This document shows, in pieces, positions 1,889-49,063 of a stretch of 53,030 nt of DNA (position 1 is the first letter of the stretch; every line of letters begins with the position of its first letter). The notes below the pieces were generated by a model, which was not told the origin of the DNA, ran no database searches, and was given only the letters and a program-made list of their open reading frames with translations. A program made the position numbers and the translations under genes. The stretch comes from a virus (Duplodnaviria; Caudoviricetes): positions 1-53,030 of IMG/VR virus record IMGVR_UViG_3300032136_000007. One strand, given 5' to 3'.

Positions 1889-2058
1889 AGCTGATCACAG
1901 CAGAGACCCGCAGGATCTTTGAGGAGTTGACCGACGTGCGCCTTGCTCGACGGGCCACGACCGATGCAATGGAGCGCATTCGACTGCGCAACCGACAGGG
2001 AGAGTTGACGCAACAGTATTGGCGTCTGTTCTGGCAAAGCCGGAAGGAGCAAACATGA
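1885..2058 (+). CDS. Small hypothetical protein (57 aa, MKLITAETRRIFEE...)
   Basis: ATGA overlaps with both the terL stop and the portal start, indicating translational coupling; below the ORF-track cutoff. Confidence 0.6.
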   Translation: MKLITAETRRIFEELTDVRLARRATTDAMERIRLRNRQGELTQQYWRLFWQSRKEQT

Positions 2059-4370
2059 GCGACAAGAATCTCAACATCAAGAAGGATGGGGTCCGGGCGC
2101 TGGCCGGAAAGCGGATCACTCTGGATCGCTACCAGTCCAACCAGAGTGCGCTGGGGCTATACGCCATCCAATCGCCAGATGAACCGGATCTGTTGTGGCA
2201 CCTGCGGCGGCTGGACCTCAACACGGTGTCGGCGTACAGCACGGACCAACTGATCGATCTGCTGGCCGACCTGTCTCCGGAGGTGGGCAAGGCGTTATGG
2301 GACTTCTTGCGTCTGTGTAATCCAGGGTGGGAAATCACGGCCTATCGGCTGGATTCCGATACGATCAACGCCCAGGCGCAGGCGGCCATCGATACCTTTC
2401 TGGACACGCTGACCGACCTCTACGGGTCAGTTGATGTACCGATCAACCGTATGTTTCTCAACGCCTTTCTGCGGGGTGCGATTGTGTGCGAGATGGTCCT
2501 GGATCAAGGGCGAACTGCCGTGGATCTGGCCGTCCCGGACCCGTGGGCCTTGCGCTTTCGGAGAGAGCCGGATGCTGTACGCGGCCAGGTGTGGCGGCTG
2601 GGCCAGTTCCAGGATGGCAAGTGGGTGAGCCTGGAACTGGACACGGTGCGCTATGCGCCCGTAGATCCCCACGCCAACAGTCCTTATGGTCGGCCCCTGG
2701 TCGGCCCGGCGCTCTTTTCGGCACTCTTCCTGCTGGGCATGTTGCACGATCTGCGCCGGGTGGTAGAGCAGCAGGGCTATCCTCGGCTGGATCTGGCGGT
2801 GGATATGGAGAAGTTGGTGAACATGATGCCCGACGATCTGGCGGACAGCCCGGAGGATGCCCAGGAGTGGATCAATGCAGCCTTCACCGAAATCCAAGAG
2901 GTGTACGGGAGCCTTGCGCCGGATGACGCCTACATCCACGGGGACAGCATCACGGTCAATCGGCCAGTGGGGGCGGTGGGGGCCGATGCGCTTGGGTCCA
3001 TCGACAACCTGATCCGCTCCCTGGAACGCATGGTGACTCGTGGCCTGAAGACCATGCCACTGATGATGGGGAGCAACGAGGCGGTCAGCGAAACCCACGC
3101 CAACCGGCAGTGGGAGATTATGGCGGCTGGCCTCAAGAGCATCCAGCATCTGGCAGAATCCCTGTTGGGCAATCTGTTGAAAGTGATGTGCGAGGCACAG
3201 GGCATCCAGACAACGGTGACGGTGCGCTTCGCAGAATTGCGGGCGGCGGAAGAGCTGCGGGATGCCCAGTCCGAGGCGATGAAGATTGCCAACGCCAAGA
3301 GCAAGTACGAGCAGGGATGGATCTCCCAGGACGAGGCGGCGCTGGAAGTGACTGGCCATGAGGCTGACCAGGAAGAGCCGAGGGGCCCATCAGACGGCCT
3401 GGCCGGCCTGGGCAGCATCCTGGCCGGTGGACCTGCCAACGACGGTGAAGAGCGCCGGGGGCCAGCCCTGGACATGGAGGTACGGTCCCGCAAGACGACC
3501 ATCCCAACCGGGGCAGACAAACCTCTGCCCGACGTGCCGGTGGAGCAGTTGGATGTGGACGAGATCCTGGCGGCTCTGGCTGAGTGGGACCGATTGAGCG
3601 AGGAAGAACATGCCGGGCTGTTGGCGGCCACACCGGACGGCAGCGAGGGTGACCTGTGGGCAGTTCTGGCCGGGCTGGTGGCGGCATCTCTCTGGCAGTA
3701 CCGGGCCTCTTCCCGTCGCTACGTGAACACGGCGACGGGTACGATGTTGACCCGCAACCAGTTGATCGACCTGCGAGACGCCTTCACGGTGCAGGTGCGG
3801 GCAGAAGCTCGGAACATCACGGCAGCCATGCTGGACGGAGAAAGCACGCTGCAACGCTGGCTGCTGGACATGCAGGACATGGTACGCAACACGCATACGA
3901 ACCAGTTCATGCTGGGCCGGGGCGGGGTAGGCATGGTCATGGAGGCAGACCTGCCCATGGTGGAGCAGGTGATCAATGACCAGTACGGCTATCTGCAGGG
4001 CTTTGCCGATGACATCGCCGCAGGGAATGTGAGCGATGGTCGTATGCTGGCCCGGGCGCAGATGTACGCCGACGCCGGGACGCAGAGCTACGAGCGGGGT
4101 CTGGCCCTGGCCTATGGGCTGCCGTCTCTGCCGGCCTATCCGGGCGACGGCGGCACACAGTGCCTGTCCAACTGCAAGTGTCGCTGGTCGATCACCGAGG
4201 ACGAGGAGGCGTGGTACTGCTACTGGACCCTGGGCATTGCCGAGCATTGTCCGGACTGCGTAGATCGGGCGTCCACATGGAATCCGTTGATCGTGCCCAA
4301 AGCGACGGCCAGAAATCGGGCCGATCTGGACACTGTGCTGGCCGGGATGGAGAACGGCCATGTCCATTGA
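2055..4370 (+). CDS. Portal protein with a fused C-terminal minor-head (MuF/SPP1 gp7-like) domain
   Basis: Follows the terminase, RBS AAGGAG before ATG 2055; portal-like N-terminal ~450 aa (PYGRPL, QQGYPRLD, GWISQDEAA); C-terminal CLSNCKC and EHCPDC motifs. Confidence 0.8.
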   Translation: MSDKNLNIKKDGVRALAGKRITLDRYQSNQSALGLYAIQSPDEPDLLWHLRRLDLNTVSAYSTDQLIDLLADLSPEVGKALWDFLRLCNPGWEITAYRLDSDTINAQAQAAIDTFLDTLTDLYGSVDVPINRMFLNAFLRGAIVCEMVLDQGRTAVDLAVPDPWALRFRREPDAVRGQVWRLGQFQDGKWVSLELDTVRYAPVDPHANSPYGRPLVGPALFSALFLLGMLHDLRRVVEQQGYPRLDLAVDMEKLVNMMPDDLADSPEDAQEWINAAFTEIQEVYGSLAPDDAYIHGDSITVNRPVGAVGADALGSIDNLIRSLERMVTRGLKTMPLMMGSNEAVSETHANRQWEIMAAGLKSIQHLAESLLGNLLKVMCEAQGIQTTVTVRFAELRAAEELRDAQSEAMKIANAKSKYEQGWISQDEAALEVTGHEADQEEPRGPSDGLAGLGSILAGGPANDGEERRGPALDMEVRSRKTTIPTGADKPLPDVPVEQLDVDEILAALAEWDRLSEEEHAGLLAATPDGSEGDLWAVLAGLVAASLWQYRASSRRYVNTATGTMLTRNQLIDLRDAFTVQVRAEARNITAAMLDGESTLQRWLLDMQDMVRNTHTNQFMLGRGGVGMVMEADLPMVEQVINDQYGYLQGFADDIAAGNVSDGRMLARAQMYADAGTQSYERGLALAYGLPSLPAYPGDGGTQCLSNCKCRWSITEDEEAWYCYWTLGIAEHCPDCVDRASTWNPLIVPKATARNRADLDTVLAGMENGHVH

Positions 4371-4662
4371 GCAGATCCGGGCGTTGCTGTCGGCAGAGGC
4401 CCAGGCGATGAAGGATCAGCGCATCCGGTTGTTGGCGCTGGTCGGGCTGGTGGAAACGTACTTGGAAGCGGCCACGGTACCGGACGATGAATCTGAACTG
4501 TGGATGGCAAGACGCCGGGCCTGGCTGATGGAGTTGGCGGCGATTGAGGTTTACCTGGGCTTGCCCAGGTCCGTACTGCCCAAGGCCGAGCGCCGGGCTG
4601 CACACAATGCAGACCGAAGGAATGGGCACGCACACGATCCAAGATCATCCAGACCCAGCTGA
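4360..4662 (+). CDS. Hypothetical protein
   Basis: Overlaps the portal stop, GGAG RBS, plausible helical protein. Confidence 0.55.
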   Translation: MSIEQIRALLSAEAQAMKDQRIRLLALVGLVETYLEAATVPDDESELWMARRRAWLMELAAIEVYLGLPRSVLPKAERRAAHNADRRNGHAHDPRSSRPS

Positions 4663-5051: not shown

Positions 5052-5501
5052 TTACGGGGTTGGTAGGTAAACCCGGTTCATTGCCCGGTCACAGTCGGCC
5101 ATGAACGCTCTGCCCAGCTCTCGGTCTGACATGCTCCACCCAGCCAAGTGTAGGGCTTCTCTGGCTTCGGTTGCCCCTTCGATGCACACGTCGAACCCAG
5201 CTAACAGATCGGCGTGTGTACGCTTCATCAACGTGGGCGGCGTGGTGTTGGCAATAGCCCGCCGTCCCCGGTTCAGGGTGTTCAGAAAGTCTACAAAAGC
5301 CTGATCGGTTGGTCGGTTGGAGCGAATGGACGTATAGAGGGTTTGGGTGACCTCGGTGGCGTTGTCCAGATGGGGCATAATGAGATCGATATACGAGACG
5401 GCCATCTGTCGATCATTGGCATCTTGTACTTGCCCATAGAGCCAGAATCCGGCTACAACTAGAACGACAACGATCAAAACTGGGATGGTCTTTTTGTTCA
5501 T
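5052..5501 (-). CDS. Membrane-anchored or secreted protein, moron-like
   Basis: MNKK followed by a hydrophobic TM/signal segment; AGAAAGGA RBS; opposite strand to the structural operon. Confidence 0.75.
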   Translation of the reverse strand: MNKKTIPVLIVVVLVVAGFWLYGQVQDANDRQMAVSYIDLIMPHLDNATEVTQTLYTSIRSNRPTDQAFVDFLNTLNRGRRAIANTTPPTLMKRTHADLLAGFDVCIEGATEAREALHLAGWSMSDRELGRAFMADCDRAMNRVYLPTP

Positions 5502-5579
5502 GGAGGGAGATCCTTTCTTGTTTAGGTGAAACGGTTATATGTTACCACATCACCAAGATTTCTGTTTTGCATTTTCCCA

Positions 5580-5609
5580 TTGACACCGCACGAACATCCG
5601 TGCTATACT
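5580..5609 (+). promoter_or_regulatory. Sigma70-like promoter of the head operon containing a GAACATCCGTGC box
   Basis: TTGACA (5580-5585), 18 nt spacer, TG-n-TATACT (5604-5609). Confidence 0.75.
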
Positions 5610-5615
5610 CAAGCC

Positions 5616-5794
5616 ACGTTCGACCGTAGGTTCCTGGCAGGTGAAAGTCTGCTCCATGCAGTGTAGACGACGCATTGTCACCCCTTTGTGAGTCTCTAGC
5701 CTGCCAGGGACCGGTCGAATGTCCATATTACTGTCGCCCCCGGTGCGAACACCTGCGGCGAGATTGCCATCATTGGCAGTCTCGCCGCTTTTTT
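5616..5794 (+). ncRNA. Candidate structured RNA or attenuator leader
   Basis: Starts at the predicted +1; 5616-5626 pairs with 5712-5722 and 5629-5641 with 5700-5712; ends at an intrinsic terminator. Confidence 0.55.
5755..5794 (+). terminator. Intrinsic terminator in the leader of the head operon
   Basis: 15-bp stem GCGGCGAGATTGCCA/TGGCAGTCTCGCCGC with TCAT loop, followed by TTTTTT. Confidence 0.85.
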
Positions 5795-5824
5795 GTTGCC
5801 CATCACCAGTCAGGAGCCTTGTCC

Positions 5825-7072
5825 ATGAATCTCGACAACCAAATTTTTGAGCATCCCGCCAGGGTGCAGACGGTGGCCGAAGGTGGCGACTTGATGGCCC
5901 TGCTGACGGAGCGGCACGCTCTGGACGGGGATGCCCTGGCCGAGCACGCCCCGTTCTTCTTCCGGGCAGAGATTTCCAGCGACCGGCTGGACGCCTATTT
6001 CACCCGCATGCACCGCACCAGCCTGGTCAACTACGCCCAGGACGCCCAGGCAGGCGTCACGTTCCTGGACAGCCACAACCATCGCACGATGGGCTTTGGC
6101 CGGTCCCTGACGGGTGTCTTCCTGCCGGGCGATGACGTGCAGACGGTCCAGGCGGATTTCTACACCGTGCGGGGCCTGACGCTCAACGGGGTCAACACCG
6201 ACCACCTGATCGCCGGCATCCGCACGGGGCTGGTCAAAGATGTGTCCATTGGCTTCTATGGGGGCGAACACGTCTGCTCGGTGTGTGGGCTGGATCTGTG
6301 GGACTGGGACTGCCCGCACATTCCCGGCTTCAAATATCCTGGCGCCACGGATGAAGACGGGAATCGAGGGACCGAACAGGTGGCCTTTGCCTGGGTGTGG
6401 GAGGCCCGGCTTGCTGAGGTCTCTGCTGTCTACGATGGGGCCACGCCAGGGGCGGCCATCCTCAAAGCCCAGCAGGAGGCCGAGGCCGGACGGCTCAAGT
6501 CTGCACAGATTCGCATGATCGAAAACCGTTACCGTATTGCTCTTCCCGGACGCCGTCAATCGTGGGCCGGGGCAACTTTCTCACAGGAGGAAACCATGCC
6601 GATGGATGACAAGCAGCAGGACCAGAAGGACACCCAGCCCCAGGCCGACGAGCGTCTCCAGGTGCTGGAACGGGTGGAGGCAGCCCTGGCCGACATGGAC
6701 GGGGCCAACGTCGAAGCAAAGCTGGCCGGGCTGATGGCTGAACGCACTGCCCAGGCGCAGAGGGTCAAAGACCTCACCGCCGAGGTAGACCGGCTCAAGC
6801 CCCTGGCCGACGACGGGGCCACCTACCGGGCCGACCTGATCGACAACGCCCTGGCCGAAGGTGTTCGGGCCTACGGCGACAGCTTCGACGCCGACACCTA
6901 CAGCGCCCTTATGGGTCAATCCGATCTCGTTGTCATCAAGCGGCTGCGGGACGACTGGAAGGTCATCGGGGATGGTCGATTCCCCCACGGTCGCCAGACG
7001 AAGGACCAGCACGAAAACGGGGCCACCCCCTCCCCTGCCGGTGACATCCCCGCTCACGCTTTCCGGGCCTAG
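5825..7072 (+). CDS. Prohead protease with C-terminal scaffold domain
   Basis: AGGAG RBS before ATG 5825; LDSH, VSIGF, CSVCG...CPHIPG and EVSAVYDGA motifs; coiled-coil C-terminus; lies between portal and capsid. Confidence 0.8.
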   Translation: MNLDNQIFEHPARVQTVAEGGDLMALLTERHALDGDALAEHAPFFFRAEISSDRLDAYFTRMHRTSLVNYAQDAQAGVTFLDSHNHRTMGFGRSLTGVFLPGDDVQTVQADFYTVRGLTLNGVNTDHLIAGIRTGLVKDVSIGFYGGEHVCSVCGLDLWDWDCPHIPGFKYPGATDEDGNRGTEQVAFAWVWEARLAEVSAVYDGATPGAAILKAQQEAEAGRLKSAQIRMIENRYRIALPGRRQSWAGATFSQEETMPMDDKQQDQKDTQPQADERLQVLERVEAALADMDGANVEAKLAGLMAERTAQAQRVKDLTAEVDRLKPLADDGATYRADLIDNALAEGVRAYGDSFDADTYSALMGQSDLVVIKRLRDDWKVIGDGRFPHGRQTKDQHENGATPSPAGDIPAHAFRA

Positions 7073-7622: not shown

Positions 7623-8837
7623 ATGCAAGACAAGACCACACGACCCGGCCCGGCTGACCTGTTCGCACAGATGGGGCCGCAGATGTACCGGGCGGCCTAC
7701 AAAGAGGGCATGTCCCTCTCTGCATGGCTGGAAAAGCAAAATCCATCCGGGCAGTACAAGGACGGGCTGGACGCCTTCTCCCGGATGATGATGCAGGCCG
7801 GCATCGTCACCCGCAGCGACACCCAGGCAGGCTACCATGCCGACAAGTTCGAGAAGTTCTACGAGAACGAGCAGACCCGCAGTCTGCTGCCCGAGTGGTG
7901 GGCGCGGCGCTGGCGGGAAGCGGCTACCGGTCGTCCCGTCACCACCCGTGCCACCTATGGCAGCGACGACGCCGCGGTGGGGAGCCTGAACAACCCCTAC
8001 ATCGACAACGGGGTGGCCCGGTGGGATCAGCAGATCGCCCCGGCCATTCCGATCAGCCAACTCGTTGCCATCACCACGCCCATCGATGGCAACACCTATC
8101 GCAGCACCTACCTGACCAACAGCGCCGCCAACCAGCGGCTGGTGCGGGTGGGCGAGTCTGCGGACATCCCGACCGTCAAGCTGACTGAGAGCGACCGCAC
8201 GGTCACGCTCTACAAGTTTGGCCGGGGGCTGGAAGCCACCTACGAAAGTCTGCGCCGGATGCGCATCGACAAGGTGGCCATGCACATCGCTCGCATGGCG
8301 GTGCAGGCCGAGACGGACAAGCTGGCCGCTATCTTGGATGTCATCGTGAACGGCGACGGCAACTCCGGCACCAGCGCTACCAACTACAACCTGACCACCC
8401 TGGACAGTGCGGCCAGTGCGGGCACGCTCACGCTCAAGGGCTGGCTGGCCTTCAAGATGAAGTTTGCCAACCCCTACATGCTGACGACCGCCCTGGCGAC
8501 CGAGGCGACTGCTCTGCAGATGATGCTGCTGAACACCGGCAGCGGGAACACCCCCCTGGTCACTATCCAGGCGGCATCCGGGTTCGGTGGCTTCAACCAG
8601 ATCAACCCTGGCCTGCGGGACGGTGTGGCCCTGGGCTGGACCGCCGAGGCGCCGACGCTCAAGATCGTCGCCATTGACAACCGGTTCGCCATCGAGCGGG
8701 TCTACGAGATGGGGGCCAACGTCCAGGAGACGGAGCGCTTCATCCGCAACCAGACCGAACTGATGACCTTCTCCGAGGTTGAAGGCTACGCCGTCATCGA
8801 CGCCAATGCCATGCTGACCCTGAACGTCAACGCCTAA
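7623..8837 (+). CDS. Major capsid protein
   Basis: 404 aa, AGGAGG RBS, HK97-fold-like signatures (RVGESADIP...LYKFGRGLEATYE), strongly biased codon usage. Confidence 0.88.
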   Translation: MQDKTTRPGPADLFAQMGPQMYRAAYKEGMSLSAWLEKQNPSGQYKDGLDAFSRMMMQAGIVTRSDTQAGYHADKFEKFYENEQTRSLLPEWWARRWREAATGRPVTTRATYGSDDAAVGSLNNPYIDNGVARWDQQIAPAIPISQLVAITTPIDGNTYRSTYLTNSAANQRLVRVGESADIPTVKLTESDRTVTLYKFGRGLEATYESLRRMRIDKVAMHIARMAVQAETDKLAAILDVIVNGDGNSGTSATNYNLTTLDSAASAGTLTLKGWLAFKMKFANPYMLTTALATEATALQMMLLNTGSGNTPLVTIQAASGFGGFNQINPGLRDGVALGWTAEAPTLKIVAIDNRFAIERVYEMGANVQETERFIRNQTELMTFSEVEGYAVIDANAMLTLNVNA

Positions 8838-17475: not shown

Positions 17476-20400
17476 CCGACATCACTGTAGCCAGCGTAAT
17501 CGGCTACGCCGCCGTTGCTGAGACATCAGAGGTTCAGATTGCTTCGGTCGTCGGGTACGCTTCACTAGGACAGGCGACAGATGTAACCGTAGCATCGGCG
17601 ATCGGGTATGCCTCTATATTGCAGCCTTCATTTGTGGAGATTGCAGCGGTGATCGGGTATGCCTCGATTGTCCTGCCATCGGGCGGGGCGTTTGTACTTG
17701 GAGACGTAACCACGGAAACAGGTAGGGCAGGGACTGCTGCTGCGCATGGGGGACGAGTCATGCCAAGCGGCGCGGCAGTGACGCCTACTCCTACTCCTCT
17801 GACTACTCCCCAACTTCCCCAGCCAGGTCTGGACTTGTCGGGCCGGGCCGGGCTGACACAGATGCGTCTGTTTGTGGGTCCGCCCTGGCGCCGAAGTAAT
17901 GAGTCTGAGTTTTGGGATTTTAGCGGGTTGGACTTGACGGCCTACAGTCCCGCGGTCGGCAGCACGGTGGCCAGCAACGTCGGGTCATCTGACGCGTCTG
18001 TGACCGTGACAGATGCCACGGGCTGGCCGTTGACCGGTGGCGTGTGGCTGGGGCCGGGGGCGACAGGCGAGTCGTGGGCCTACGCCACCTACACCGGGCG
18101 GAGCGGCAACGTCTTGACCGGGCTGAGTCGGGATACCGTGGATGCGGAATACAGCGGCGAACACACAGCCGGGGCGGAAGCGCACTTCTGGTATCCACTC
18201 ACTATGGACGATGGCCGGTTCACCTACCGGGAAAGCATGGACCAGCGTGTGGCCACGTCCACCTGGTCCATGGACCTATCCGGCGTCAACTGTCCCGTGG
18301 GCGTGTTGCGGGCCGGGCATCTGGTTTTGGTCCAGATTCGGGAGATAAGTGGGGCGGGCTGGGGCAGTTGGACAACGTGGGCTATCGGCTGGCTCACGGG
18401 GGCGAACCCCACCGACGATGAAACCAAGACCCGAAGATGGACAGCTGGGGTGGGGGCATTGGACGCAGTAGCATTGCAAGCCAATGTCATCGGCCTGCAC
18501 GTAGGCGAGCGGGACGCTGCTGACGAGGGCAGTGCCTCGGCCAGTGGCACCCTGTCCCCAGTCTACAAAGCCATCGGGGACGGAACGGGAGAAGTGGACA
18601 GCGAAAACGACGTGGTCACGCCGGGCCGGGCCATTGACAGCAGCTTGACGACCGACTGGCACAGCGGGCGGTACTACGGCGAGGACAATCCTCTGCCCAG
18701 CCCTGGAGCCAGCGCCATTGACGGAGTGCGAGACGATGCTGCAATCACACAGGTGCATATCAACCCTTACACCGGCCAGGGCGACGGCTACAGGTGGGTG
18801 GAGATCACATGGATTAGCGATCTTTCTGGCGACTTTTGGCTTATTGCTGGCATTGATTACATGGTGCGCTTTGAGGATGGGTACGGGGCGGGCAAGCTAG
18901 ACTTCGGCTCGGGGGATCGGATAATCCTGGCCGAAAACCCGGACTTATTCAGCTCCGAAAACCCGGAGAACGAGGCCGCCGCGGTGCTGGACTTGGCCGA
19001 CTGGTCTGTCTGGCTGATGAACAATCAGAAGTACAGCGTGACCACAGGGGCCACAGGCGGCACGTTCACGCTCACCGTGGACGGGCAGACCACATCAGCG
19101 ATTGCCTATAACGCTACAGCCGCCACGGTGCAGAGTGCCTTGGCGGGGCTATCCAGCGTGGGGACCGACAACGTGCGGGTGGAGGGCAACGCCGGGGCCT
19201 GGGGCGTGACCTTCGTCAACGACCTGGGCCGTGAGTATGGGCCGGGCATGACCGGCGATGGGGCCGGACTCTCCGGGGGCACGCTTTCAGTCACTCAGAC
19301 ACAATCCCCAGCATTCCCCTGGGATACAGGGGCTGACGGTACGACGATTTTTGACCACGCGTCCGCTTCAGGTGGCATGTTGCGTCTGTTTCATGGCCCG
19401 ACCGGTACAGGGCACAGTCAAGTCGTATGGGGAACCACTGACCCCATGACGGCATGGTCCCCAACCTGGACAGGCAGTGCATTATCCGCACCGGGAGCGG
19501 GCGAAACCATGAGGATGCTGTTTTCGCCGTCCAGCCCTACGGTCACAGCAGACTTTTGGCAAGTGGGCCGGATCGCCACACCGGGCTATGCCGTCGAAGC
19601 GGCGGACAGTGCCTGGCTACTGATAGACCTGCCGACAATGGGCCTGAAACTGGCCGGAGACATCACGGACAGCAGCCCAGGGGCCGGGGACGCCTTAAGC
19701 ATCGAGAACGCAGCTGGGGCGAGCGCCGAGGGATTGCCGGCGAGCGGGACCATCCAAGTCGGAAACGAGCAGATCACCTACTCAGGGAGAGACTTTGACG
19801 CTGGGACTGTGACCGTCTCAGCTCGTGGGGCCAACGGGACAGCCGCCGCCGCCCACTTCGCCGATGACCCGCTCTACTTTGTGGACGGCGCGGGCGTGGC
19901 CACCGACGCCTACCCCATCGAGACGGTGCGCCTGCGCCGATCAACCGGACTGGCCGTGCCAGAAGATTTCGTGATCCGGGTGTCAGCCTTGTCCAGCGCC
20001 AGGAACCCGGAACAGGCCAACTACACGGTGGACTATGGCACCCTGGCCACGGTCACGGGCAATGCACTAGAATCTTACAGTCTGGATTTATCGGCCACGA
20101 CTCCGCGTATTCGCTGGCTGCTGGTAGAAGTGACGGCCATGACGGACGCGCCCAGCCGGGTGCGGATTGGCGAGGTGGATGCCGTGGTTGATCCTGGCGT
20201 GCTGGCTACGGGGACCACGTTGGCAAGCGGGACCGTGGCCGACGCAGTGGACGCACTGCTAGACCAAGCTGGCTTGCCTTCCGGTGTCCTGGTAGACGCC
20301 GGAGACACGCTGGAGCCCGACCAGTACACGACAGCGGGTGGGTCACTTTGGTCAATTTTAGCAGATTTGGCGGACTTTGCTGGGGCAAGGATCCGCATCG

Positions 20401-23343: not shown

Positions 23344-23637
23344 ATGCAGCACAAACCTTTGGGCCTGGTCTGGTCATCCATCCTCGTCGTTATTCTCGTC
23401 TTCGCCGGTTGGCTGGATGACCAGTTTTTTCAGAGTGGTATCCGCGAATGGCTTCCGGGCTTCATCAACTCCGCCCAGACCGTCCTGGGCATCGTCGGCC
23501 TGGCTCTTGGGTTGGCCTACACGGTCTACATGGAGTTGCAGGATCAGAAGTTGCGGGACTTCGGGCCGGATCATGTTGGCACTCGTGCAGTTGGTGAGTC
23601 GATGGAGACAAAGCCACTATGGAAAAGAATACTGTGA
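23344..23637 (+). CDS. Holin-like protein with two TM segments
   Basis: 97 aa, two hydrophobic helices, charged C-terminus, located after the tail genes. Confidence 0.55.
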   Translation: MQHKPLGLVWSSILVVILVFAGWLDDQFFQSGIREWLPGFINSAQTVLGIVGLALGLAYTVYMELQDQKLRDFGPDHVGTRAVGESMETKPLWKRIL

Positions 23638-24026
23638 CTCGGCTGCTCATTGTGGAGGACGACCCACGTCAACGCTTCTTATACCGAAGGGTGTTGGGCG
23701 GCTGCTGTGACGAGATCGTTGAGGCGTCAGATGGGTTTGAGGCGCAGGAGCACGACTGGACCAAATTTGACGTTGTGCTGCTAGATTTGCTCATGCCCGG
23801 CATGGATGGAATGGCTACCCTAGCTTGGGCTGCGCAGACGTTCGGGGAAGACTTGCCGCCTGTCGTAATTTTTACCGCCCTGTCAAACGGCCCGCTGCGG
23901 GCCATCGCCAATTCGCTGCCACAAAACGTGACGATACAGCAAAAGGGGATGGGCAAGCGGGAAAGTGTGTTGAAGAATATCACGGAGACGGTTGTTGATG
24001 CAGTTGCTAATCATCGCACCTCGTAG
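23634..24026 (+). CDS. Stand-alone CheY-like response regulator receiver
   Basis: LLIVEDD acidic pocket, DVVLLDLLMPGMDG (phospho-Asp), PVVIFTA, terminal K; GTGA overlap with the upstream gene. Confidence 0.9.
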   Translation: MTRLLIVEDDPRQRFLYRRVLGGCCDEIVEASDGFEAQEHDWTKFDVVLLDLLMPGMDGMATLAWAAQTFGEDLPPVVIFTALSNGPLRAIANSLPQNVTIQQKGMGKRESVLKNITETVVDAVANHRTS

Positions 24027-24627
24027 CTCACTGGACGTTTTCGCAGAAGTTTTAGAGGCGGCAGGGGAAAGCAATAACATTCTGCATGGCAATGTAAGCA
24101 GCCGGGAGGCATTGGACCATGTAGCAAGCGGCCAATATGACCGAATATATTTTGCTGGCGATGGGGACAAAACTCGCCTCGTTTTCAGCGATGGCTTGCT
24201 AGACGGAGCACTGCTGGCTGATGCCGTGCGCCATGCCGGAACGATAGAGCTGGCTATTTTCAATTCGTGCGAGTCATTGGGTATGGCTCTAGCTGCGTAC
24301 ATGGCCGGAGCGTCTTACGTGATCGGCTGGCAAGATGAAGTTCAGGACAAAGCGGCCAGCACGTTCGGCAGTACGTTTTGGGCATCTTACAAGATGGGGT
24401 CGAAGATCCAGCGCGCCTACTGGACTGGACGCGAGGCGGTGATTCGCAACTACCCGGGTCAGCCAACGCCGATCCTGCTCAACGGGCAGGGTGTCCGATT
24501 TCGCCAGGAAGTGGCCGAATTGCGCCAACAGATCGACCGACTAATGAGCATGGTGAAAGCGTTGATCGTGGCTTTGGCCGTGACTCTAGCAATCGGTGCG
24601 GCTGATATTTTCTGGCTGCACTGGTAG
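23998..24627 (+). CDS. CHAT (caspase-like) domain protein with coiled coil and C-terminal TM; catalytic His apparently replaced
   Basis: YFAGDG (canonical HFxGHG), LAIFNSCES (canonical LNAC), AGASYVIG, VQDKAA..F...FW; C-terminal hydrophobic anchor. Confidence 0.7.
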   Translation: MQLLIIAPRSSLDVFAEVLEAAGESNNILHGNVSSREALDHVASGQYDRIYFAGDGDKTRLVFSDGLLDGALLADAVRHAGTIELAIFNSCESLGMALAAYMAGASYVIGWQDEVQDKAASTFGSTFWASYKMGSKIQRAYWTGREAVIRNYPGQPTPILLNGQGVRFRQEVAELRQQIDRLMSMVKALIVALAVTLAIGAADIFWLHW

Positions 24628-29144: not shown

Positions 29145-29237
29145 TGTTCGGTGTTCGGCCTGTTCGGGTGTTCTGTCGGCTGAACTGCCATGCTTTTGAG
29201 TATCAAGACGTATGACGAACAGGCTGAACACCGAACA
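29145..29237. repeat. 22-bp inverted repeat built of GAACA/TGTTC units around a 49-bp spacer
   Basis: TGTTCGGTGTTCGGCCTGTTCG (29145-29166) vs CGAACAGGCTGAACACCGAACA (29216-29237), one mismatch. Confidence 0.9.
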
Positions 29238-36274: not shown

Positions 36275-36549
36275 GCTGGACACTCGCTCAGCACGGCGGG
36301 CGACAGGTGGGCGGGCACGCCATTGCGCTCTTTGGGGACAAGACAAGTTTGGCCTTCCAGCCGCTCGTTGGTCCCATAGACAAACTCGAACGTGTGCATG
36401 TAGCACCACACGCCCCGGCCAGGGGTTTTGACGCCAGGTTTGCCACAGGCTGGGCAGACCTCAACCGGCTGCGTGTTCAGGTACAGATCCCCCGGTTTGT
36501 AGTTGCCGGGGATCTGGACGGTGATGGATGAAACCAGACTACCGCTCAC
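36271..36549 (-). CDS. Small zinc-finger-like protein
   Basis: CPACG...H...C; overlapping start/stop. Confidence 0.55.
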   Translation of the reverse strand: MSGSLVSSITVQIPGNYKPGDLYLNTQPVEVCPACGKPGVKTPGRGVWCYMHTFEFVYGTNERLEGQTCLVPKERNGVPAHLSPAVLSECPA

Positions 36550-37643
36550 GATTCACGCTCCTTGGCGATCTCTTTGCGAATGCCTGCCGTGAGTCGACCT
36601 ATCTCTTTGATGGTCAGCTGGGCGATGTCCTGGGTTGTGCCAGTGCTGATGCTATCCGCCAGTTTGCGCTGTTTTTCGGGCCAGCCATCCCCGTAGTGCT
36701 GCCGTCCGACCGTATTCAACTCGGCAAGCGCCTTTCCCTTGGGCGTGAGAACCGGTTGCGGGCTTGCTTCTGATTGTTCAGATTCTGGTTCCTCGGGATG
36801 GCTGTACGGATCGGGGGACAGAGGGTCGTAGGGCTCGCCGTTCTCATCGTAGAGTTGGGGAAGGGCGGGGCGGTCCATGTCCAGGGTGTCGCCCTCCCAC
36901 TCGTCTACGATTTCGCCGTCCTCTGTGACGGTGCGCCCATCCACCAGTAGGCGGTCACCGGGCAGTTGCAGCGCCCGCTGGCGCATACCGGCCAACTGTA
37001 GCCGGACCCACTGGGGATCCGGTTCGATGAACAGCAGCCACTTCTCGAAGCGACGACGTCCACCGTCATCGGTTGGGGTGCTGATCATCTTGGGGCGGCG
37101 GCTCAACACGAAGGGAACGCCTTGCAAGTTGCCACGTATGGCGTAGACGGCGTTGAGGTTGGCCGAAAGCTCCATGATGTCGTTGATGCTGCCGGTGAGG
37201 ACGGTCACATAGGCAAAGCGGCGCAGCTCGGGGATGATGATGGAGAGGCGTCCGATAGGTTTACATCCTGGCTCCTTGCGGGTGCGTTCCTTTTCCCCGG
37301 TGGCATAGGGACAGGGGTGAGGCTCGGTGCTGTAGGCGCCATTTGCTGTCATGTGGAGAGACATAGTTTCGCCGTCGCAGCGATGGACCAGACCTCCGGC
37401 TCGATACTCTTCTTGCCATGCCGGGAAGTTTTCGTCCGGGGTGGAGTAGGGCAGATAGCAGTTGATGCTCTGCGGTTGCGCGCCGTAGGCGTCTAGGAAG
37501 TCGGCGGCGGCTTGGGCGTCGTCGGTGTCGAACCGGAAGTAAGTCAGATCTTTGCCCGGCGACTTCTCGCCCTTGGGCGCACCCTTGCGCAGCGTGCCGA
37601 TGCGGGGAAAGCTGGCCTCGGTAGCCAGTCGTTTGATAGGCAT
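36546..37643 (-). CDS. Gp3-like / recombination directionality factor-like protein
   Basis: MPIK.L....FPRIG.LRKG...KDL.YFRF, HRCDGE, CP...CKP.GRL..IIPEL, T.SIN, L.GVPF.L.R pattern. Confidence 0.75.
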   Translation of the reverse strand: MPIKRLATEASFPRIGTLRKGAPKGEKSPGKDLTYFRFDTDDAQAAADFLDAYGAQPQSINCYLPYSTPDENFPAWQEEYRAGGLVHRCDGETMSLHMTANGAYSTEPHPCPYATGEKERTRKEPGCKPIGRLSIIIPELRRFAYVTVLTGSINDIMELSANLNAVYAIRGNLQGVPFVLSRRPKMISTPTDDGGRRRFEKWLLFIEPDPQWVRLQLAGMRQRALQLPGDRLLVDGRTVTEDGEIVDEWEGDTLDMDRPALPQLYDENGEPYDPLSPDPYSHPEEPESEQSEASPQPVLTPKGKALAELNTVGRQHYGDGWPEKQRKLADSISTGTTQDIAQLTIKEIGRLTAGIRKEIAKERES

Positions 37644-40509: not shown

Positions 40510-40873
40510 ACCGGGCGGCTACAAAGACGCCGGGCTAGTACGCACCTGCATAAAGACCAACAGTGAGATCCATCGCATGGTCAAGCTACAGATGGACGAG
40601 TATCCCACCGCACGCAGTCGGCAACTACTGGTGGCTGCTATGTCCTTATTGACCCATCAGCACGGATGGCTAAACAAAATGCTAGACGACATCACCATCA
40701 TGCCGGATGAGCCAATTCGAGTGAATGAGTTGCTGAACCAGATCAATCTTTGGCTACTGAATGCACGCCCTACCCCGAGGGCATTGGTCTACTTGAGTGG
40801 GACAGCCTTTGAACTGCGAACACAAGCTGAAGCCTTGCTCAGCCTGAAGACAATTCGAGGACAGCATGAGTGA
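40490..40873 (+). CDS. Hypothetical protein
   Basis: Overlaps both neighbours. Confidence 0.55.
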   Translation: MATYRPEPGGYKDAGLVRTCIKTNSEIHRMVKLQMDEYPTARSRQLLVAAMSLLTHQHGWLNKMLDDITIMPDEPIRVNELLNQINLWLLNARPTPRALVYLSGTAFELRTQAEALLSLKTIRGQHE

Positions 40874-42170
40874 CTTCATCCCGAACAGTACACAGATGCC
40901 CAATCTCTACCTGGACCGACTCCTGGCCTTGTTGAGCGGAAATGAGTGGAAGGTTGTCAGCTACATGGCTCGCCGCCTCTTTGGGTTCCAAAAGCGCCGG
41001 GATCGGATTTCCATTGGCCAGATATGCAATGGGGTGAAGAACCGCAAGACCGGCCAGCAACTGGACTACGGAACAGGTCTCAATAACGCCACGGTGCTGC
41101 GGGCCTTGGCCGAGTTGGAGACGTACGGGATCGCTCGTCAGTCCGCACCCGCAGATAAGGCAAAGAACATCGCTACGGAGTGGGAGCTGCAACTGAATAG
41201 CGACCAAGTGGATTGGGCCGGTCTGGAAGCACGACAGGAGGCGGGGAAAAAGAGGACCCGAAAGCGGACAAAAGCTGGACGAAAAGCGGCGAACGAAGGA
41301 CCTGGTCCATCCAATAGACCAGGGGCAAATGAAGAACCTGGTCTATCCAATAGACCAGGTCACCTGGTCCATCCAATAGACCAGGTTGATGCCAAACCTA
41401 GTCCATCCAATAGACCACCCCTGGTCCATCCAATAGACGGACAAAAGAAAGGGGAAACAAAGATAGATGGTGATGGTATATCCCAAGAAGAGAATCGCCC
41501 GTTTAATCCGCCAAAGATTCGGGGCAAGGCAGAACGGTATTCAGCGTTGCGAGCTGAGCCGGAGTTGAGAGATCGGGCACAAGTTGCGATGCAGCTGCTA
41601 GGCGTCACGCATTTTGGGAAGATGTTCTCCAAGCGGAAAGAGGCTACTGGACGCAAGATCTTGACCGATCAGGACTGGCAAGAGATCTTGGACTGGTGTG
41701 CTTACTACGAGGGCCGGGTTAGCACCGGGAAAATTCAGATGGATGATGTCGCTCGCCTCCTAGTTGCCAACATTCGAGACGCAGATCCGGTGCCGATTCA
41801 GCGAGAGGCAATACAGATGGCAAACGGCTGGGCCAATCATGTCAGACATGACAGTAATACAGACGGCATGATTCTGGACAATGAGGAAGATGTCGACGAT
41901 GTGGATGATGGGCAGTCGGAACAGGGGGGGATCTGGGGAGAGGCGATGCGGACGCTACGTAGGTCCATGACTCGCCATACATATGCCATCATTCGAGGGG
42001 CGACACTGGTGGAGCAGGGCGAAGGGCGATTGATCGTATCAGTGACAAGCCCAGAAGCGCTTCAGAAGCTGCACGCCATACGGCAGAATGTGGAGAGCGT
42101 TGTGTCACGTATTGCACAACAGCGCATGGATGTTGAGTTTCGAATTGGAGAGCATCGTGGGCAAGCATAG
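40866..42170 (+). CDS. Replication initiator (lambda O-like N-terminus, DnaA N-terminal-like C-terminus)
   Basis: PNSTQMPN.YLD.LL..LSG.EWKV..Y.AR..FGF.K..D.IS; internal iterons; C-terminal IWGEAM..LR..M....Y...I domain. Confidence 0.82.
   Translation: MSDFIPNSTQMPNLYLDRLLALLSGNEWKVVSYMARRLFGFQKRRDRISIGQICNGVKNRKTGQQLDYGTGLNNATVLRALAELETYGIARQSAPADKAKNIATEWELQLNSDQVDWAGLEARQEAGKKRTRKRTKAGRKAANEGPGPSNRPGANEEPGLSNRPGHLVHPIDQVDAKPSPSNRPPLVHPIDGQKKGETKIDGDGISQEENRPFNPPKIRGKAERYSALRAEPELRDRAQVAMQLLGVTHFGKMFSKRKEATGRKILTDQDWQEILDWCAYYEGRVSTGKIQMDDVARLLVANIRDADPVPIQREAIQMANGWANHVRHDSNTDGMILDNEEDVDDVDDGQSEQGGIWGEAMRTLRRSMTRHTYAIIRGATLVEQGEGRLIVSVTSPEALQKLHAIRQNVESVVSRIAQQRMDVEFRIGEHRGQA
41301..41438. 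repeat. Five palindromic iterons, putative replication origin
   Basis: CCT(G/A)GTC(C/T)ATCCAATAGAC at 41301, 41337, 41363, 41397 and 41420. Confidence 0.88.
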
Positions 42171-42639
42171 TTCAGGGTGGATCGCTCGCAAAGCCGGGCA
42201 GCAGTGGGAAGATGCATTGGAAGTCTATCATCAATGGCTAGGTGCCCAGGGCCTAGCCGTGGTCCACAAGACTGGTCCTCAGATTGTGTTCGTCAAGCAG
42301 CGGGGACAGGTGGGTCCCCGGGTGACGGGGCCGGGGCCAGCCGATTACGTGGGCGTGCTCAACTCCGGTGTGTTCGTGGGCTTTGAGGCCAAATCGACTA
42401 GCAGCACGTCGGGCTACTCTATCCCAGCCAAGGCCATGCACCAGCTGCATTGGCTCAATGACATTCGCTCCACGACTGGGGGCTGGGCCAAGGTCTTTTA
42501 CATCGTCCGCTATCGCAAGTTGGATGAAACCTGCATTCACCGAGTCCAGGACATCTTCCCCGGCTCTCGCATTCGCCGGCCCCAGGGGATACTCGTCCCG
42601 GACGGAATCAGTTGGCTAGATGTGCTGAATCGACTGTAG
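42157..42639 (+). CDS. RecU-like Holliday junction resolvase
   Basis: G..WE..L, AVVHK, ADYVG, GFEAKST, HQL..L. Confidence 0.8.
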   Translation: MGKHSSGWIARKAGQQWEDALEVYHQWLGAQGLAVVHKTGPQIVFVKQRGQVGPRVTGPGPADYVGVLNSGVFVGFEAKSTSSTSGYSIPAKAMHQLHWLNDIRSTTGGWAKVFYIVRYRKLDETCIHRVQDIFPGSRIRRPQGILVPDGISWLDVLNRL

Positions 42640-42677
42640 TTCTAAATTCTCTATTCACAGAAAGAAAGGGACCGATC

Positions 42678-43460
42678 ATGTATCACATTGCATTTGCCCT
42701 GTTGGGCGGGGGGACTGGGAAGAGCACCTCCGCCGTCAACGTGGGCCACGCTCTTGCCATGCAGGGCTTGCGTACCCTGATCGTGGACGCTGACCGACAG
42801 GGACAGTGCGCCGTGTTCCTGGGGCGCAACCCGGAGCCTGGGATCCACCAGTGGCTTGGCGGGAACCTCATGGGGCTCAAGGAGCCGTTGGAGAACATCG
42901 TGCGGCAGACGGGCCGGGGGCAATTGGACCTGCTGCCGGGCAGCCAGCAGACCGAAATGCTGCAACGCATGTTGGTGGCCTTCGATAGCCCTCCCCGCTG
43001 GCTCAAAGATCAGCTGGAGGCCGACCGGGAGTTCTTCGCCCATTATGACGTGGTGGTGTGGGACACGGCTCCCACGGGGCGGCTGCTGGACATGGTGCTG
43101 CATCTGGCTGACATCGCCGTGCTGCCGGTGCCGGCAGATCTCAAAGGTCAATCCAGCCTGGCCGACACGCTGGCCATCTTGCCGGCCAGCACAGAGCGCA
43201 TCGTCCTGCCGACACGGGTGCCCACTGCGCAGCGGGTGTCTACCGACTTTCTGCGGGGCTATCAGGTGGACTATCCAGGGACCATGTACACCGACGATGA
43301 GGGCAAGGCGCTCTATGTTCCGGAGCGGGCATCGGTGCGTACATCCCAGGCGTTGGGCCAGACCATTTTCGAGTATGGTCCCAACTCGGACGTGGCGGAG
43401 GTCTACCGGCGATTGGCCTACTATCTTGGCCTGCGGGCGTATCAGGCGGTGCGGGCATGA
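42678..43460 (+). CDS. parA: ParA-family ATPase
   Basis: GGGTGKSTSAVN, LIVDADRQG, LDLLPG, YDVVVWDTAP, IFEYGPNS. Confidence 0.88.
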   Translation: MYHIAFALLGGGTGKSTSAVNVGHALAMQGLRTLIVDADRQGQCAVFLGRNPEPGIHQWLGGNLMGLKEPLENIVRQTGRGQLDLLPGSQQTEMLQRMLVAFDSPPRWLKDQLEADREFFAHYDVVVWDTAPTGRLLDMVLHLADIAVLPVPADLKGQSSLADTLAILPASTERIVLPTRVPTAQRVSTDFLRGYQVDYPGTMYTDDEGKALYVPERASVRTSQALGQTIFEYGPNSDVAEVYRRLAYYLGLRAYQAVRA

Positions 43461-48003: not shown

Positions 48004-48259
48004 GTTTAGAGTCTTCTCAACTGAATACGCCTGACAGAAGCCAAGAGGCCGGGGCGCAAGCGGGAGACGATCATCGTCTTCGCTTGTGTCCTGGCCTTCG
48101 TTATTGAGGGTGCACGATGAAACCAGTAGACCCCTACACCCGGGCGGATGGCTGAAGTAAGTTCAGCGACCAACTGCCCTATCTGCTGGACGGTATGATT
48201 GATCGCATCCGCTCGGTTACCGAAGAACCGAGCGGTAAAGTTATAGAAGGGATTATTTG

Positions 48260-49063
48260 ATGGCCGCTAAACAAAAAGAGCAACAGCCAGATTTTACGTT
48301 TGACGTGACGGACGTTGAGATTTGGGATATTGGCAGGGTGATTCCCTATCCGACGAACCCGAAAATTCATGACGACCATGCCGTCGCAGAAATGGCCGGG
48401 ATGATCAAAGAATTTGGTTGGACCTACCCGATCCTCGTGGATGATGAGGGGGTGATTCTGGCTGGCCACAAGCGGCGCAAGGCTGCGATCATGCTAGGGT
48501 TGTCCAGAGTACCAGTCCTGGTCAAGCAAGGGCTGACCAGCGCCCAGAAGCGGGCCTACCGTATTGCAGACAATCGGCTCACGGAGAATAGCCCCTGGGA
48601 CAACAGTGCTTTGATTCTAGAACTGGAAGTGTTTCGAGACGAAACGGGCGGTCTGGAATTTACGGGGTTCACCGACGCCGACCTAAGCAATCTCAAGATT
48701 TTTGAGGACGACGATGAAGCAGGAGAGGGGGAGAACGGTGGCGCTTCCGATGGCTCTCTCTTGGAGTTGATTGATGTCACCATAGACGAGCCGAAACACG
48801 AAGTTAAGCCGGGAGAAGTTTGGGAATGTGGTCGGCATATTCTCGTGTGTGCCGAGGTAGTCGATGGATGGGCGACCTGGGTCTCTTTCCTCGCTGGCGA
48901 TGAAACCCTATTTGCTCCGTATGCTGGACCCTTTGTCCCGTTGAGCTTGAAATCAGAGGTCCACCAAATCGTGATGGTACAACCAGATCCTTACATCGCT
49001 GGCCATATCCTTGATCGGTACAGCGAGGTCAAGGGAGAGGATGTTATCAAGCGGCATGATTAG
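48260..49063 (+). CDS. ParB/Srx N-terminal domain fused to a collapsed methyltransferase-like remnant
   Basis: PYPTNPKIH, IKEFGWTYPILVD..GVILAGHKR..AA, AYRIADNRL; C-terminal GEVWECGRHILVC and DPYIAGHILDRY. Confidence 0.8.
   Translation: MAAKQKEQQPDFTFDVTDVEIWDIGRVIPYPTNPKIHDDHAVAEMAGMIKEFGWTYPILVDDEGVILAGHKRRKAAIMLGLSRVPVLVKQGLTSAQKRAYRIADNRLTENSPWDNSALILELEVFRDETGGLEFTGFTDADLSNLKIFEDDDEAGEGENGGASDGSLLELIDVTIDEPKHEVKPGEVWECGRHILVCAEVVDGWATWVSFLAGDETLFAPYAGPFVPLSLKSEVHQIVMVQPDPYIAGHILDRYSEVKGEDVIKRHD

What the first reader, a model, noticed from the sequence alone, without database searches (positions are those of the whole stretch)
5616..5794. About 180-nt structured RNA with its own promoter and terminator in front of the head operon
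Seen: transcription would start at a long closing helix (5616-5641 with 5700-5722, G-U pairs favouring the + strand). It encloses TGAAA, a GTCTGC/GTAGAC hairpin whose loop (TGCAGTG) can pair with downstream CATTGT (possible pseudoknot) and a TCAC/GTGA hairpin. A 15-bp intrinsic terminator then ends about 30 nt before the protease ATG, so the capsid/tail operon needs read-through or another promoter. Inference: an undescribed phage sRNA (for example a packaging-associated RNA, given its position between portal and protease) or an antitermination/riboswitch-like late switch. I do not recognise it as a known family.
Basis: partly seen in the sequence, partly recalled or inferred. Interest (0 to 1): 0.75.

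Follow-up and report, generated by a model that had tools for sequence, protein, structure and literature searches.

The report
Terminated leader RNA gating phage head genes
A strong promoter, a folded RNA of about 180 bases and a strong stop signal sit directly in front of this uncultured phage's head genes, and comparison with relatives suggests a read-through switch of a familiar kind built from undescribed parts.

Summary
The sequence features are real. There is a near-consensus promoter (5580-5609) and a 5' hairpin topped by a small three-way junction (5616-5722). A 15-bp terminator (5755-5788 plus U-run) ends about 30 nt before the protease-like gene's ATG (5825). No Rfam family matches.

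Seven of 34 related sources, the window included, carry the same promoter-leader-terminator layout before this gene.

The part conserved across six lineages is not the junction. It is a 28-nt imperfect hairpin (5734-5761) whose 3' strand is also the base of the terminator's 5' arm. It shows four compensatory pairs, and one change is matched in both alternative partners.

The junction occurs in only one other contig, with three compensatory pairs. It is absent from the window's nearest relative.

Best reading: this is the terminated leader of the head-tail operon, a late gate opened by holding the antiterminator hairpin. The factor is unknown. One candidate is a small helical protein (4360-4662) that travels with the cassette.

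The riboswitch, packaging-RNA and proposed pseudoknot readings are not supported. No transcript data exist.

The parts
5580..5609 (+). Near-consensus sigma-70/sigma-A type promoter: TTGACA, 18-nt spacer, TG-extended TATACT. Inferred start near A5616.
   Evidence: One search gives 11 of 12 matches. It is homologous to promoters in L036/L004, L037 and L038. The start site is inferred, not measured.
5616..5722 (+). 5' domain. Lower stem 5616-5625/5713-5722, bulge 5626-5628, upper stem P1 5629-5641/5700-5712. The stem encloses a three-way junction.
   Evidence: Folds. Comparison with L037 gives 3 compensatory pairs (5629-5712, 5639-5702, 5650-5660), one broken pair (5631-5710) and a conserved U-G at 5632-5709.
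5642..5699 (+). Junction core: J1/2 UGAAAGU 5642-5648; P2 5649-5652/5658-5661 with loop UCCAU; J2/3 UGU 5662-5664; P3 5665-5668/5692-5695 with a variable tip (5678-5681/5688-5691); J3/1 CUAG 5696-5699.
   Evidence: 31 of 35 nt from 5633 to 5667 are identical to L037, and 3 of the 4 differences lie in compensated pairs. The P3 register is ambiguous, AGAC/GUCU or UAGA/UCUA.
5734..5761 (+). Imperfect hairpin, the candidate antiterminator: UCGCC-C-C-C-GGUG(cgaa)CACC-U-G-C-GGCGA. Its 3' strand 5755-5761 is also the base of the terminator's 5' arm.
   Evidence: Six lineages fold alone into the same shape. On alignment A5, 91.7% of cells pair, 4 pairs change on both sides, 1 of 500 shuffles is as good, and slid controls pair at 37-63%. 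It forms in nascent-length folds before the terminator's 3' arm exists.
5755..5798 (+). Intrinsic terminator: 15-bp stem 5755-5769/5774-5788, loop UCAU, then U-run 5789-5794 (UUUUUUGUUG).
   Evidence: Covariation across 4 lineages: 6 pairs changed on both sides, 98.2% paired, 0 of 500 shuffles as good.
5812..7072 (+). Shine-Dalgarno AGGAG (5812-5816) and the gene for a 415-aa prohead-protease-like protein (ATG 5825), the first gene of the head-tail block.
   Evidence: (28.6% identity to an annotated head maturation protease).
4360..4662 (+). Small protein P0001 (100 aa): helical hairpin plus a basic C-terminal tail. It is a candidate trans factor by association only.
   Evidence: Homologues lie upstream of the cassette in the L036/L004 group, the L037 contig (L069), L038 and L042. 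In L048 the homologue lies between promoter and terminator. AF2 model pLDDT 84.7. No family or fold match.
5052..5501 (-). Divergent 149-aa gene with an N-terminal hydrophobic segment. It looks like moron-type cargo, and this position holds different genes in relatives.
   Evidence: L037 carries a methylase-like ORF and another minus-strand ORF here instead.

Best explanation
The RNA of about 180 nt is the terminated leader transcript of the head-tail operon.

How it would work:
1. A host-type, near-consensus promoter fires at about 5616.
2. The transcript starts with a long 5' hairpin capped by a small three-way junction.
3. It then forms a 28-nt imperfect hairpin (5734-5761).
4. It then reaches a strong intrinsic terminator whose 5' arm base (5755-5761) is the same RNA as the 3' strand of that hairpin. 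The two structures are therefore mutually exclusive.
5. The full terminator is 7-12 kcal/mol more stable, so the default is termination about 30 nt before the protease start. This gives a short RNA and silent head genes.
6. Expression of the head and tail genes needs the upstream hairpin to be held, most likely by an RNA-binding phage protein. The terminator's lower stem then cannot form, and the remaining upper hairpin sits 5-9 nt from the U-run.

What is shown: the sequence elements, their conservation and the covariation.

What is inferred: the transcription start, termination in vivo, the existence of a factor, and its identity. P0001 is a guess from gene association.

The three-way junction is a real conserved RNA fold, but it is an accessory 5' module rather than the core of the switch. 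It may stabilise the 5' end or act in trans.
For: - The layout of promoter (at least 10 of 12 matches) plus strong terminator close upstream of the protease gene occurs in 7 of 34 sources examined: window, L036, L037, L038, L042, L048, L049. Two more (L050, L051) have a terminator and a weaker promoter-like site that I read by eye.
- Genes upstream of the cassette differ between lineages, while its position before the protease is kept.
- Terminator covariation: 6 pairs with both-side changes, 0 of 500 shuffles as good.
- Hairpin 5734-5761: same register and shape in six lineages; 91.7% of cells paired against 37-63% when slid; 4 compensatory pairs; 1 of 500 shuffles as good.
- In L038 the terminator arm change G to A is matched both in the terminator's 3' arm (C to U) and in the upstream strand (C to U).
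- Nascent-length folds show the hairpin forming first.
- With the hairpin enforced, the residual stem is separated from the U-run.
- There is no promoter room between terminator and ATG, so read-through is logically required.
- No other strong + strand terminator was found inside the 5.8-22 kb late block, which fits a local rather than a processive device.
Against: - There is no transcript evidence: no RNA run holds this sequence.
- A generic test, whether any upstream pairing captures the terminator base, was not significant: 76-182 of 300 shuffles did as well in the eight lineages where any pairing was seen, and L038 showed none in the MFE fold.
- The lower stem, which is the part that matters, has only one double compensatory change plus wobble-compatible changes. 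Two lineages lose the terminal pair.
- There are only six lineages, and the alignment windows were chosen by me from coordinates found by eye.
- The covariance model's scores for L042, L049 and L048 (31, 25.5 and 19.9 bits) are close to what palindromic terminators alone give on the wrong strand (18-26 bits).
- No known antiterminator domain was found in the 49 window ORFs scanned with Pfam. The tail-region ORFs were not scanned.
- P0001 has no informative fold or family match.
- Relatives in Bacillus and Peribacillus plasmid prophages have the same gene order with no cassette.
Confidence: 0.5

Rival explanations
1. A lambda PR'-6S-tR' type gate. A DNA-binding, Q-like factor or another processive modification of RNA polymerase lets it ignore the terminator. 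The leader RNA and its hairpins would be by-products.
For: - The overall layout matches: a constitutive-looking promoter, a short terminated RNA, then late genes.
- The motif GAACAYCYG occurs both in the promoter spacer (5592-5600) and just before the terminator (5747-5755), and both copies are kept in L037.
- A small gene directly upstream (P0001) mirrors the position of Q, which I recall from own knowledge.
Against: - No Q-family domain was found in the 49 ORFs scanned.
- By reading, I found no conserved -10-like pause element in the first 30 transcribed nt of the four close lineages.
- This reading does not explain the covariation of the hairpin that overlaps the terminator.
- The motif count in the window, 4 against 2.04 expected, is not significant on its own.
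Confidence: 0.2
2. A stand-alone small RNA gene acting in trans. The 5' domain would be the working part, and hairpin plus terminator a conserved 3' scaffold. The head genes would be transcribed from far upstream.
For: - It has its own strong promoter and terminator.
- The 5' region varies between lineages on a conserved 3' end: a three-way junction in the window and L037, another long hairpin in L038, and an unstructured CA-rich stretch in L036/L004.
- I recall a precedent from own knowledge: StxS, an sRNA made from the terminated late leader of Stx phages.
Against: - The cassette keeps a fixed place 27-41 nt before the protease ATG in the six aligned lineages while upstream neighbours change.
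- Any upstream transcription must still cross the same terminator.
- No target was found. The best antisense match in the window is 13 nt (5731-5743 with 18054-18066), and about one 12-mer match is expected by chance.
- The host genome is unknown.
Confidence: 0.12
3. An unregulated attenuator. The 5' hairpin stabilises the mRNA and the terminator is simply leaky. This would fix a ratio between short and full-length transcripts and boost head-gene dosage relative to terminase and portal.
For: - 5'-terminal hairpins recur at or near +1 in the window, L038 and L042.
- No factor has been identified.
- The hairpin that forms first could slow terminator folding kinetically.
Against: A 15-bp, 10 G-C stem with six U's looks efficient. 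A consensus promoter with constitutive leak would express head genes at all times, including in a lysogen. The phage has ParA/ParB-like, HTH and RDF-like genes that suggest a temperate life.
Confidence: 0.12
4. A riboswitch. The three-way junction would be a ligand-binding aptamer that controls the terminator.
For: - Junction strands are conserved, two stems show compensatory changes, and the P3 tip is variable.
- It lies upstream of a terminator.
- The phage carries 7-deazaguanine pathway genes, so a pathway metabolite is conceivable.
Against: - I found no conserved alternative pairing linking P1 to the terminator or to the 5734-5761 hairpin. They are 12-20 nt apart.
- The nearest relative keeps the hairpin and terminator but has no junction.
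- Only 2 sequences carry the junction.
- No Rfam match was found even at E up to 10.
Confidence: 0.05
5. A packaging-associated RNA like phi29 pRNA, or a DNA-level palindrome such as a MITE or a protein-binding site.
For: It lies between the portal and protease genes, and it contains a long inverted repeat.
Against: - No Rfam pRNA match.
- There is no second copy in the window.
- All 22 hits to the arm pattern in 185,579 species genomes lack the interior, and the number is close to chance.
- A conserved U-G pair and the better + strand energy favour RNA.
Confidence: 0.02

Closest known systems
Lambda-type late control: PR' promoter, 6S RNA, tR' terminator and Q (recalled from own knowledge)
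   Same: A constitutive-looking promoter is followed within about 180 nt by a strong terminator directly before late structural genes. A short terminated RNA is the default product.
   Different: No Q homologue was found and no conserved pause element was seen. The cassette sits between portal and protease, not before the lysis and terminase genes. A conserved RNA hairpin overlaps the terminator, which points to an RNA-level device.
BglG/SacY/LicT antiterminators with RAT hairpins overlapping a terminator (recalled from own knowledge)
   Same: A hairpin of about 28 nt with internal mismatches shares its 3' strand with the terminator's 5' arm. The terminator is the more stable fold, so a bound protein would be needed for read-through.
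   Different: No CAT or PRD domain protein was found in the 49 ORFs scanned. I did not test sequence similarity to RAT. The context is a phage late operon, not a sugar operon.
Cis-acting RNA antiterminators of mobile elements: conAn of pLS20 (PMC8191782; abstract and section 22 read), canT of Tn916 (PMC11658703; abstract and section 16 read), HK022 put (recalled)
   Same: A structured leader RNA lies between a promoter and a terminator at the head of a long operon of a mobile element. In conAn it works with a small protein encoded next to it.
   Different: Those elements are 300-450 nt long (put about 70 nt, recalled) and act processively on many terminators. Here the structured 5' domain is missing from the nearest relative that keeps the terminator, and only one strong terminator needs to be passed.
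StxS, a small RNA from the terminated late leader of Stx phages (recalled from own knowledge)
   Same: The terminated late-leader transcript could itself have a function in lysogens.
   Different: No target, chaperone site or expression data exist here.

Membership tests
Any Rfam 15 family (riboswitches, ribozymes, pRNA, Y RNA-like and others) | Covariance-model score at or above the family's gathering threshold | tested here: not met
   The whole window gave 0 matches. In 5450-5900 at E up to 10 there were only three chance-level hits of 14-18 bits against thresholds of 43-52. Eight related loci gave 0 matches.
Lambda Q / PR' / tR' cassette | Promoter followed by a terminator directly before late genes | tested here: met
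   at sequence level only.
Lambda Q / PR' / tR' cassette | A Q-family antiterminator protein encoded in the genome | tested here: not met
   No such Pfam domain in the 49 ORFs scanned. ORFs between 9.2 and 22.8 kb were not scanned.
Lambda Q / PR' / tR' cassette | Q-binding element and a sigma-dependent promoter-proximal pause | tested here: inconclusive
   By reading I saw no conserved -10-like element in the initial transcribed region. A repeated GAACAYCYG motif includes one copy in the promoter spacer. This needs biochemistry.
BglG/SacY/LicT-RAT type antitermination | A hairpin whose 3' strand overlaps the terminator's 5' arm, mutually exclusive with the terminator | tested here: met
   with moderate covariation support.
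BglG/SacY/LicT-RAT type antitermination | A CAT RNA-binding domain protein with PRD domains | tested here: not met
   None among the 49 ORFs scanned. A host-encoded factor cannot be checked because the host is unknown.
Riboswitch | Aptamer coupled to the expression platform by a conserved alternative pairing | tested here: not met
   Stepwise folds of the window and L037 show no shared competing structure that involves P1. L036/L004 lacks the junction yet keeps the platform.
Riboswitch | Ligand binding | not testable with these tools
   Needs in-line probing or ITC.
Processive RNA antiterminators (put, EAR, conAn2, canT) | The RNA element is present wherever the terminator it overcomes is present | tested here: not met
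   The three-way junction is in 2 of the 4 close lineages that share the terminator. The small hairpin 5734-5761 is in all 4 and in 2 more distant ones.
phi29-type packaging RNA | Match to the pRNA model and association with the portal in proheads | tested here: not met
   No Rfam match. Association with proheads is not testable here.

The most novel reading that the evidence does not exclude
The cassette may be a new two-part late switch of Bacillota-like phages. A previously unnamed family of small helical-hairpin proteins with a basic tail (P0001, 4360-4662) would bind the conserved imperfect hairpin 5734-5761 and block the terminator. The three-way junction at the 5' end would be a new RNA module that gives the terminated leader a second job, for example as a trans-acting or protein-sequestering RNA made constitutively in lysogens.
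Probability: 0.15. Interest if true: 0.7.

Novelty: new variant of a known kind. Interest (0 to 1): 0.45.

Why it matters
Late-gene timing by antitermination is textbook for lambdoid phages of enterobacteria. As far as I recall it is poorly documented for phages related to those of Bacillota. Two literature searches listed RNA-based antiterminators in Gram-positive conjugative elements but no description of a phage head-operon cassette like this one; I read only the listing and two papers.

If the hairpin-terminator overlap works as proposed, it gives a compact switch of about 70 nt that can be tested directly, together with a candidate new RNA-binding protein family. It also shows how a strong promoter can be inserted to boost capsid gene dosage without early expression.

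The three-way junction adds one more orphan phage RNA fold, but with only two examples its weight is small.

Tried and rejected
- Rfam, whole window and a permissive local scan: nothing. Related loci: nothing. tRNA or tmRNA: none.
- blastn of the region against 50,697 phage records: no match.
- Exact 24-mer of the junction in IMG/VR: 0 hits. Two looser junction patterns found only the L037 contig plus one AT-rich chance hit, L070.
- MITE idea: the arm pattern gave 22 single hits in genome contigs. None shared the interior, and the number is near chance. There is no second copy in the window.
- RNA expression: no RNA holder was listed. The only run is a DNA run that may be the source sample.
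- Generic shuffle test for pairing between upstream sequence and the terminator base: not significant.
- Covariance model R1: it recovers L042, L049 and L048, but at scores close to terminator-only background. It found no further lineages in L071-L080.
- P0001:
  - No Pfam or PHROG family.
  - Only 2 homologous clusters among 5.8 billion proteins.
  - No Foldseek match at E up to 0.001.
  - The protein atlas gave only generic helical hairpins.
  - No similarity to the small ORF at the same place in a B. cereus plasmid prophage.
  - A viral scan with the family alignment returned only lineages already known.
- Search for trans targets inside the window: best match 13 nt, at chance level.
- A short ORF starting in the P2 loop (ATG 5655; 11 codons in the window, 9 in L037) was rejected. 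There is no clear Shine-Dalgarno sequence, and its second codon changes through the compensatory stem substitution (read).
- Apparent similarity between the window's lower stem and the L038 long hairpin (GUUCGACCG against GUUCAGACCGG) was not recovered by MAFFT and is left open.
- Supplementary files of the two papers were not seen.

Full report
**What is in the sequence**

The window is a 53,030-base IMG/VR virus record, rated linear and about 95% complete. Around the finding it encodes:
- a large terminase (170-1888);
- a portal fused to a second PHROG family of unknown function (phrog_24776) (2019-4370);
- a 100-aa protein, P0001 (4360-4662);
- a divergent 149-aa gene (5052-5501, minus strand);
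- after a 323-nt gap, a 415-aa protein related to prohead proteases (ATG 5825);
- the major capsid protein (7623-8837).

The gap holds TTGACA-18-TATACT with a TG extension at 5580-5609, an 11 of 12 match. In my scan of both strands only five sites in the window reach 10 of 12.

The stretch 5612-5730 folds at -53.1 kcal/mol (z -5.98; 0 of 200 shuffles as good). The opposite strand is weaker at -44.8 (z -3.62). A 15-bp terminator (5755-5788) with a U-run follows. AGGAG lies at 5812-5816 and the ATG at 5825.

**Known families**

Rfam 15 gives nothing for the window. A permissive scan of 5450-5900 gives only chance-level hits. Eight related loci give nothing. There are no tRNA or tmRNA genes.

**Relatives**

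The protease protein found 8 viral loci and 33 metagenome loci. Several are the same contigs in both collections.

My script examined 34 sources: the window plus the 33 metagenome loci.
- 7 of 34 have both a promoter of at least 10 of 12 matches and a strong terminator-like hairpin close upstream of the protease match: window, L036 (the L002-L005 group), L037, L038, L042, L048 and L049.
- L050 and L051 have a terminator further upstream, and I read weaker promoter-like sites there by eye.
- The remaining 25 show no such pair. Two of them (L059, L060) have under 100 nt of upstream sequence.

Bacillus and Peribacillus plasmid prophages with 31-33% identical proteases have the same gene order, with only about 20-nt gaps and no cassette.

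A protease tree of 26 rows was built, leaving out L046 and the fragmentary L062-L068. It places the window next to L036, then L037 and L038. The deeper branching is unresolved, so one origin of the cassette is neither shown nor excluded.

**The three-way junction**

Only L037 (65% identical protease; the same contig as L069) carries a homologue.
- 31 of 35 nt from 5633 to 5667 are identical, and three of the four differences lie in compensated pairs.
- Over 20-21 predicted pairs there are 3 double compensatory changes (5629-5712, 5639-5702, 5650-5660), one broken pair and a conserved U-G.
- The junction strands UGAAAGU, UGU and CUAG are invariant, and the P3 tip differs by a 14-nt indel.

The window's nearest relative (L036/L004 group) has only 29 unstructured nt in place of the whole 5' domain. 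L038 has a different long hairpin. The junction is therefore a real, constrained RNA fold, but it is lineage-restricted and dispensable for whatever the cassette does.

**The conserved core**

The window, L037, L036 and L038 share the last 60-70 nt, and L042 and L048 share it in recognisable form. This core is a small hairpin followed by the terminator.

The terminator covaries strongly across four lineages: 6 pairs with both-side changes, 98.2% of cells paired, 0 of 500 shuffles as good, and 29-48% paired when slid.

Stepwise folding of nascent lengths showed that the small hairpin extends downward. UCGCC (5734-5738) pairs with GGCGA (5757-5761), which is the base of the terminator's 5' arm.

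All six lineages fold alone into the same shape. It consists of a 4-5 bp stem, a 1x1 mismatch, one pair, a second 1x1 mismatch, a 3-4 bp stem and a loop, at -6.4 to -13.1 kcal/mol.

On the six-row alignment:
- 91.7% of cells pair, against 37-63% when slid;
- 4 pairs show both-side changes;
- 1 of 500 shuffles reaches the observed score.

In L038 the arm change G to A is matched in the terminator's 3' arm and also in the upstream strand. This is what two competing pairings predict.

The terminator conformer is 7-12 kcal/mol more stable. With the hairpin enforced, the remaining upper stem stands 5-9 nt from the U-run. Termination should therefore be the default, and something must hold the hairpin for read-through.

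**Weaknesses**

- A generic shuffle test of whether anything upstream captures the terminator base was not significant. In the eight lineages where any pairing was seen, 76-182 of 300 shuffles did as well, and L038 showed no such pairing in the MFE fold.
- The lower stem has a single double change.
- There are only six lineages, and I chose the alignment windows myself.
- The covariance model's scores for the distant lineages are close to terminator-only background.
- No RNA data exist.

**The factor**

Pfam scans of 49 window ORFs found no Q, N, CAT, ANTAR or NusG-like domain. The tail-region ORFs were not scanned.

P0001 homologues lie upstream of the cassette in the L036 group, the L037 contig (5.6 kb upstream, with cargo genes in between), L038 and L042. 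A 24% identical relative in L048 lies between the promoter and the terminator. No homologue was found within the fetched flanks of cassette-less loci.

The family is tiny. It models as a helical hairpin with a low-confidence basic tail and has no informative structural match. The link to the cassette is by association only.

**Coding checked**

The in-frame TTG 5675 extension is not conserved coding. The conserved terminator motif falls in frames 1, 2, 0, 2, 2, 1 relative to the start codon I assigned across six lineages. In five of them that assigned start is an ATG preceded by a Shine-Dalgarno sequence; my L048 start coordinate was a few bases off, so its frame value is only approximate.

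**Comparison with what is known**

The layout works like lambda's PR'-6S-tR' gate. The hairpin-terminator overlap works like the RAT-terminator overlap of the BglG/SacY/LicT systems. Both comparisons are recalled from my own knowledge.

RNA-based antiterminators with a helper protein are described for Gram-positive conjugative elements: conAn (PMC8191782; abstract and section 22 read) and canT (PMC11658703; abstract and section 16 read).

Membership in any of these families fails on the protein component or on element distribution. I therefore file this as a new variant of a known kind of switch.

Earlier notes of this scan describe similar promoter-leader-terminator units in other phages. They are leads that I did not test.

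**Verdict**

The best reading is a terminated late-operon leader with a hairpin-overlap antiterminator (confidence 0.5). The three-way junction is an accessory module of unknown role. Interest is moderate.

Noticed in passing
window 50949-52602: Adjacent ORFs match PTPS/QueD (E 6.6e-31), a weak radical-SAM hit that could be QueE, and GTP cyclohydrolase I (E 1.2e-51). This gene set suggests 7-deazaguanine modification of the phage DNA.
   Followed up: no
window 41285-41437: Five tandem copies of a 23-36 nt unit (CCTGGTCCATCCAATAGACC core) lie inside the ORF 40866-42170, which has a weak Phage_rep_O match. They look like origin iterons.
   Followed up: no
window 5592-5600 and 5747-5755: The motif GAACAYCYG occurs in the promoter spacer and again just before the terminator, and both copies are kept in L037. 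The window-wide count of 4 against 2.04 expected is not significant on its own.
   Followed up: partly
window 23619-24627: A stand-alone response-regulator receiver domain protein is followed by a CHAT-domain protein at the end of the late block. This is unusual cargo for a phage.
   Followed up: no
window 42612-43460, 45675-47735, 48257-49063, 36546-37643: ParA-like, FtsK-like and ParB-like proteins and an RDF-like (Gp3-like) protein are present. No integrase was seen in the ORFs scanned, so the phage may be maintained as a plasmid prophage, like its Bacillus and Peribacillus relatives.
   Followed up: partly
window 38364, 34949, 32088 (minus strand): Three consensus or near-consensus promoters (12, 12 and 11 of 12 matches) face leftward in intergenic gaps. 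They are probably the early leftward promoters.
   Followed up: no
L037 1-2178 (same contig as L069): Between the P0001 homologue and the cassette this relative carries about 5.6 kb of other genes. They include a methyltransferase-like ORF and a minus-strand 173-aa ORF. The site just upstream of the promoter is therefore a hot spot for cargo insertion.
   Followed up: partly
L042 about 2180-2400: The 270-nt leader of this more distant relative starts with a hairpin at +1, contains CCCAGTACCACC repeats, and has a Shine-Dalgarno-preceded 8-codon mini-ORF before its hairpin and terminator.
   Followed up: no
window 29145-29237: A 22-nt inverted repeat, 95% complementary, with arms 49 nt apart.
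   Followed up: no
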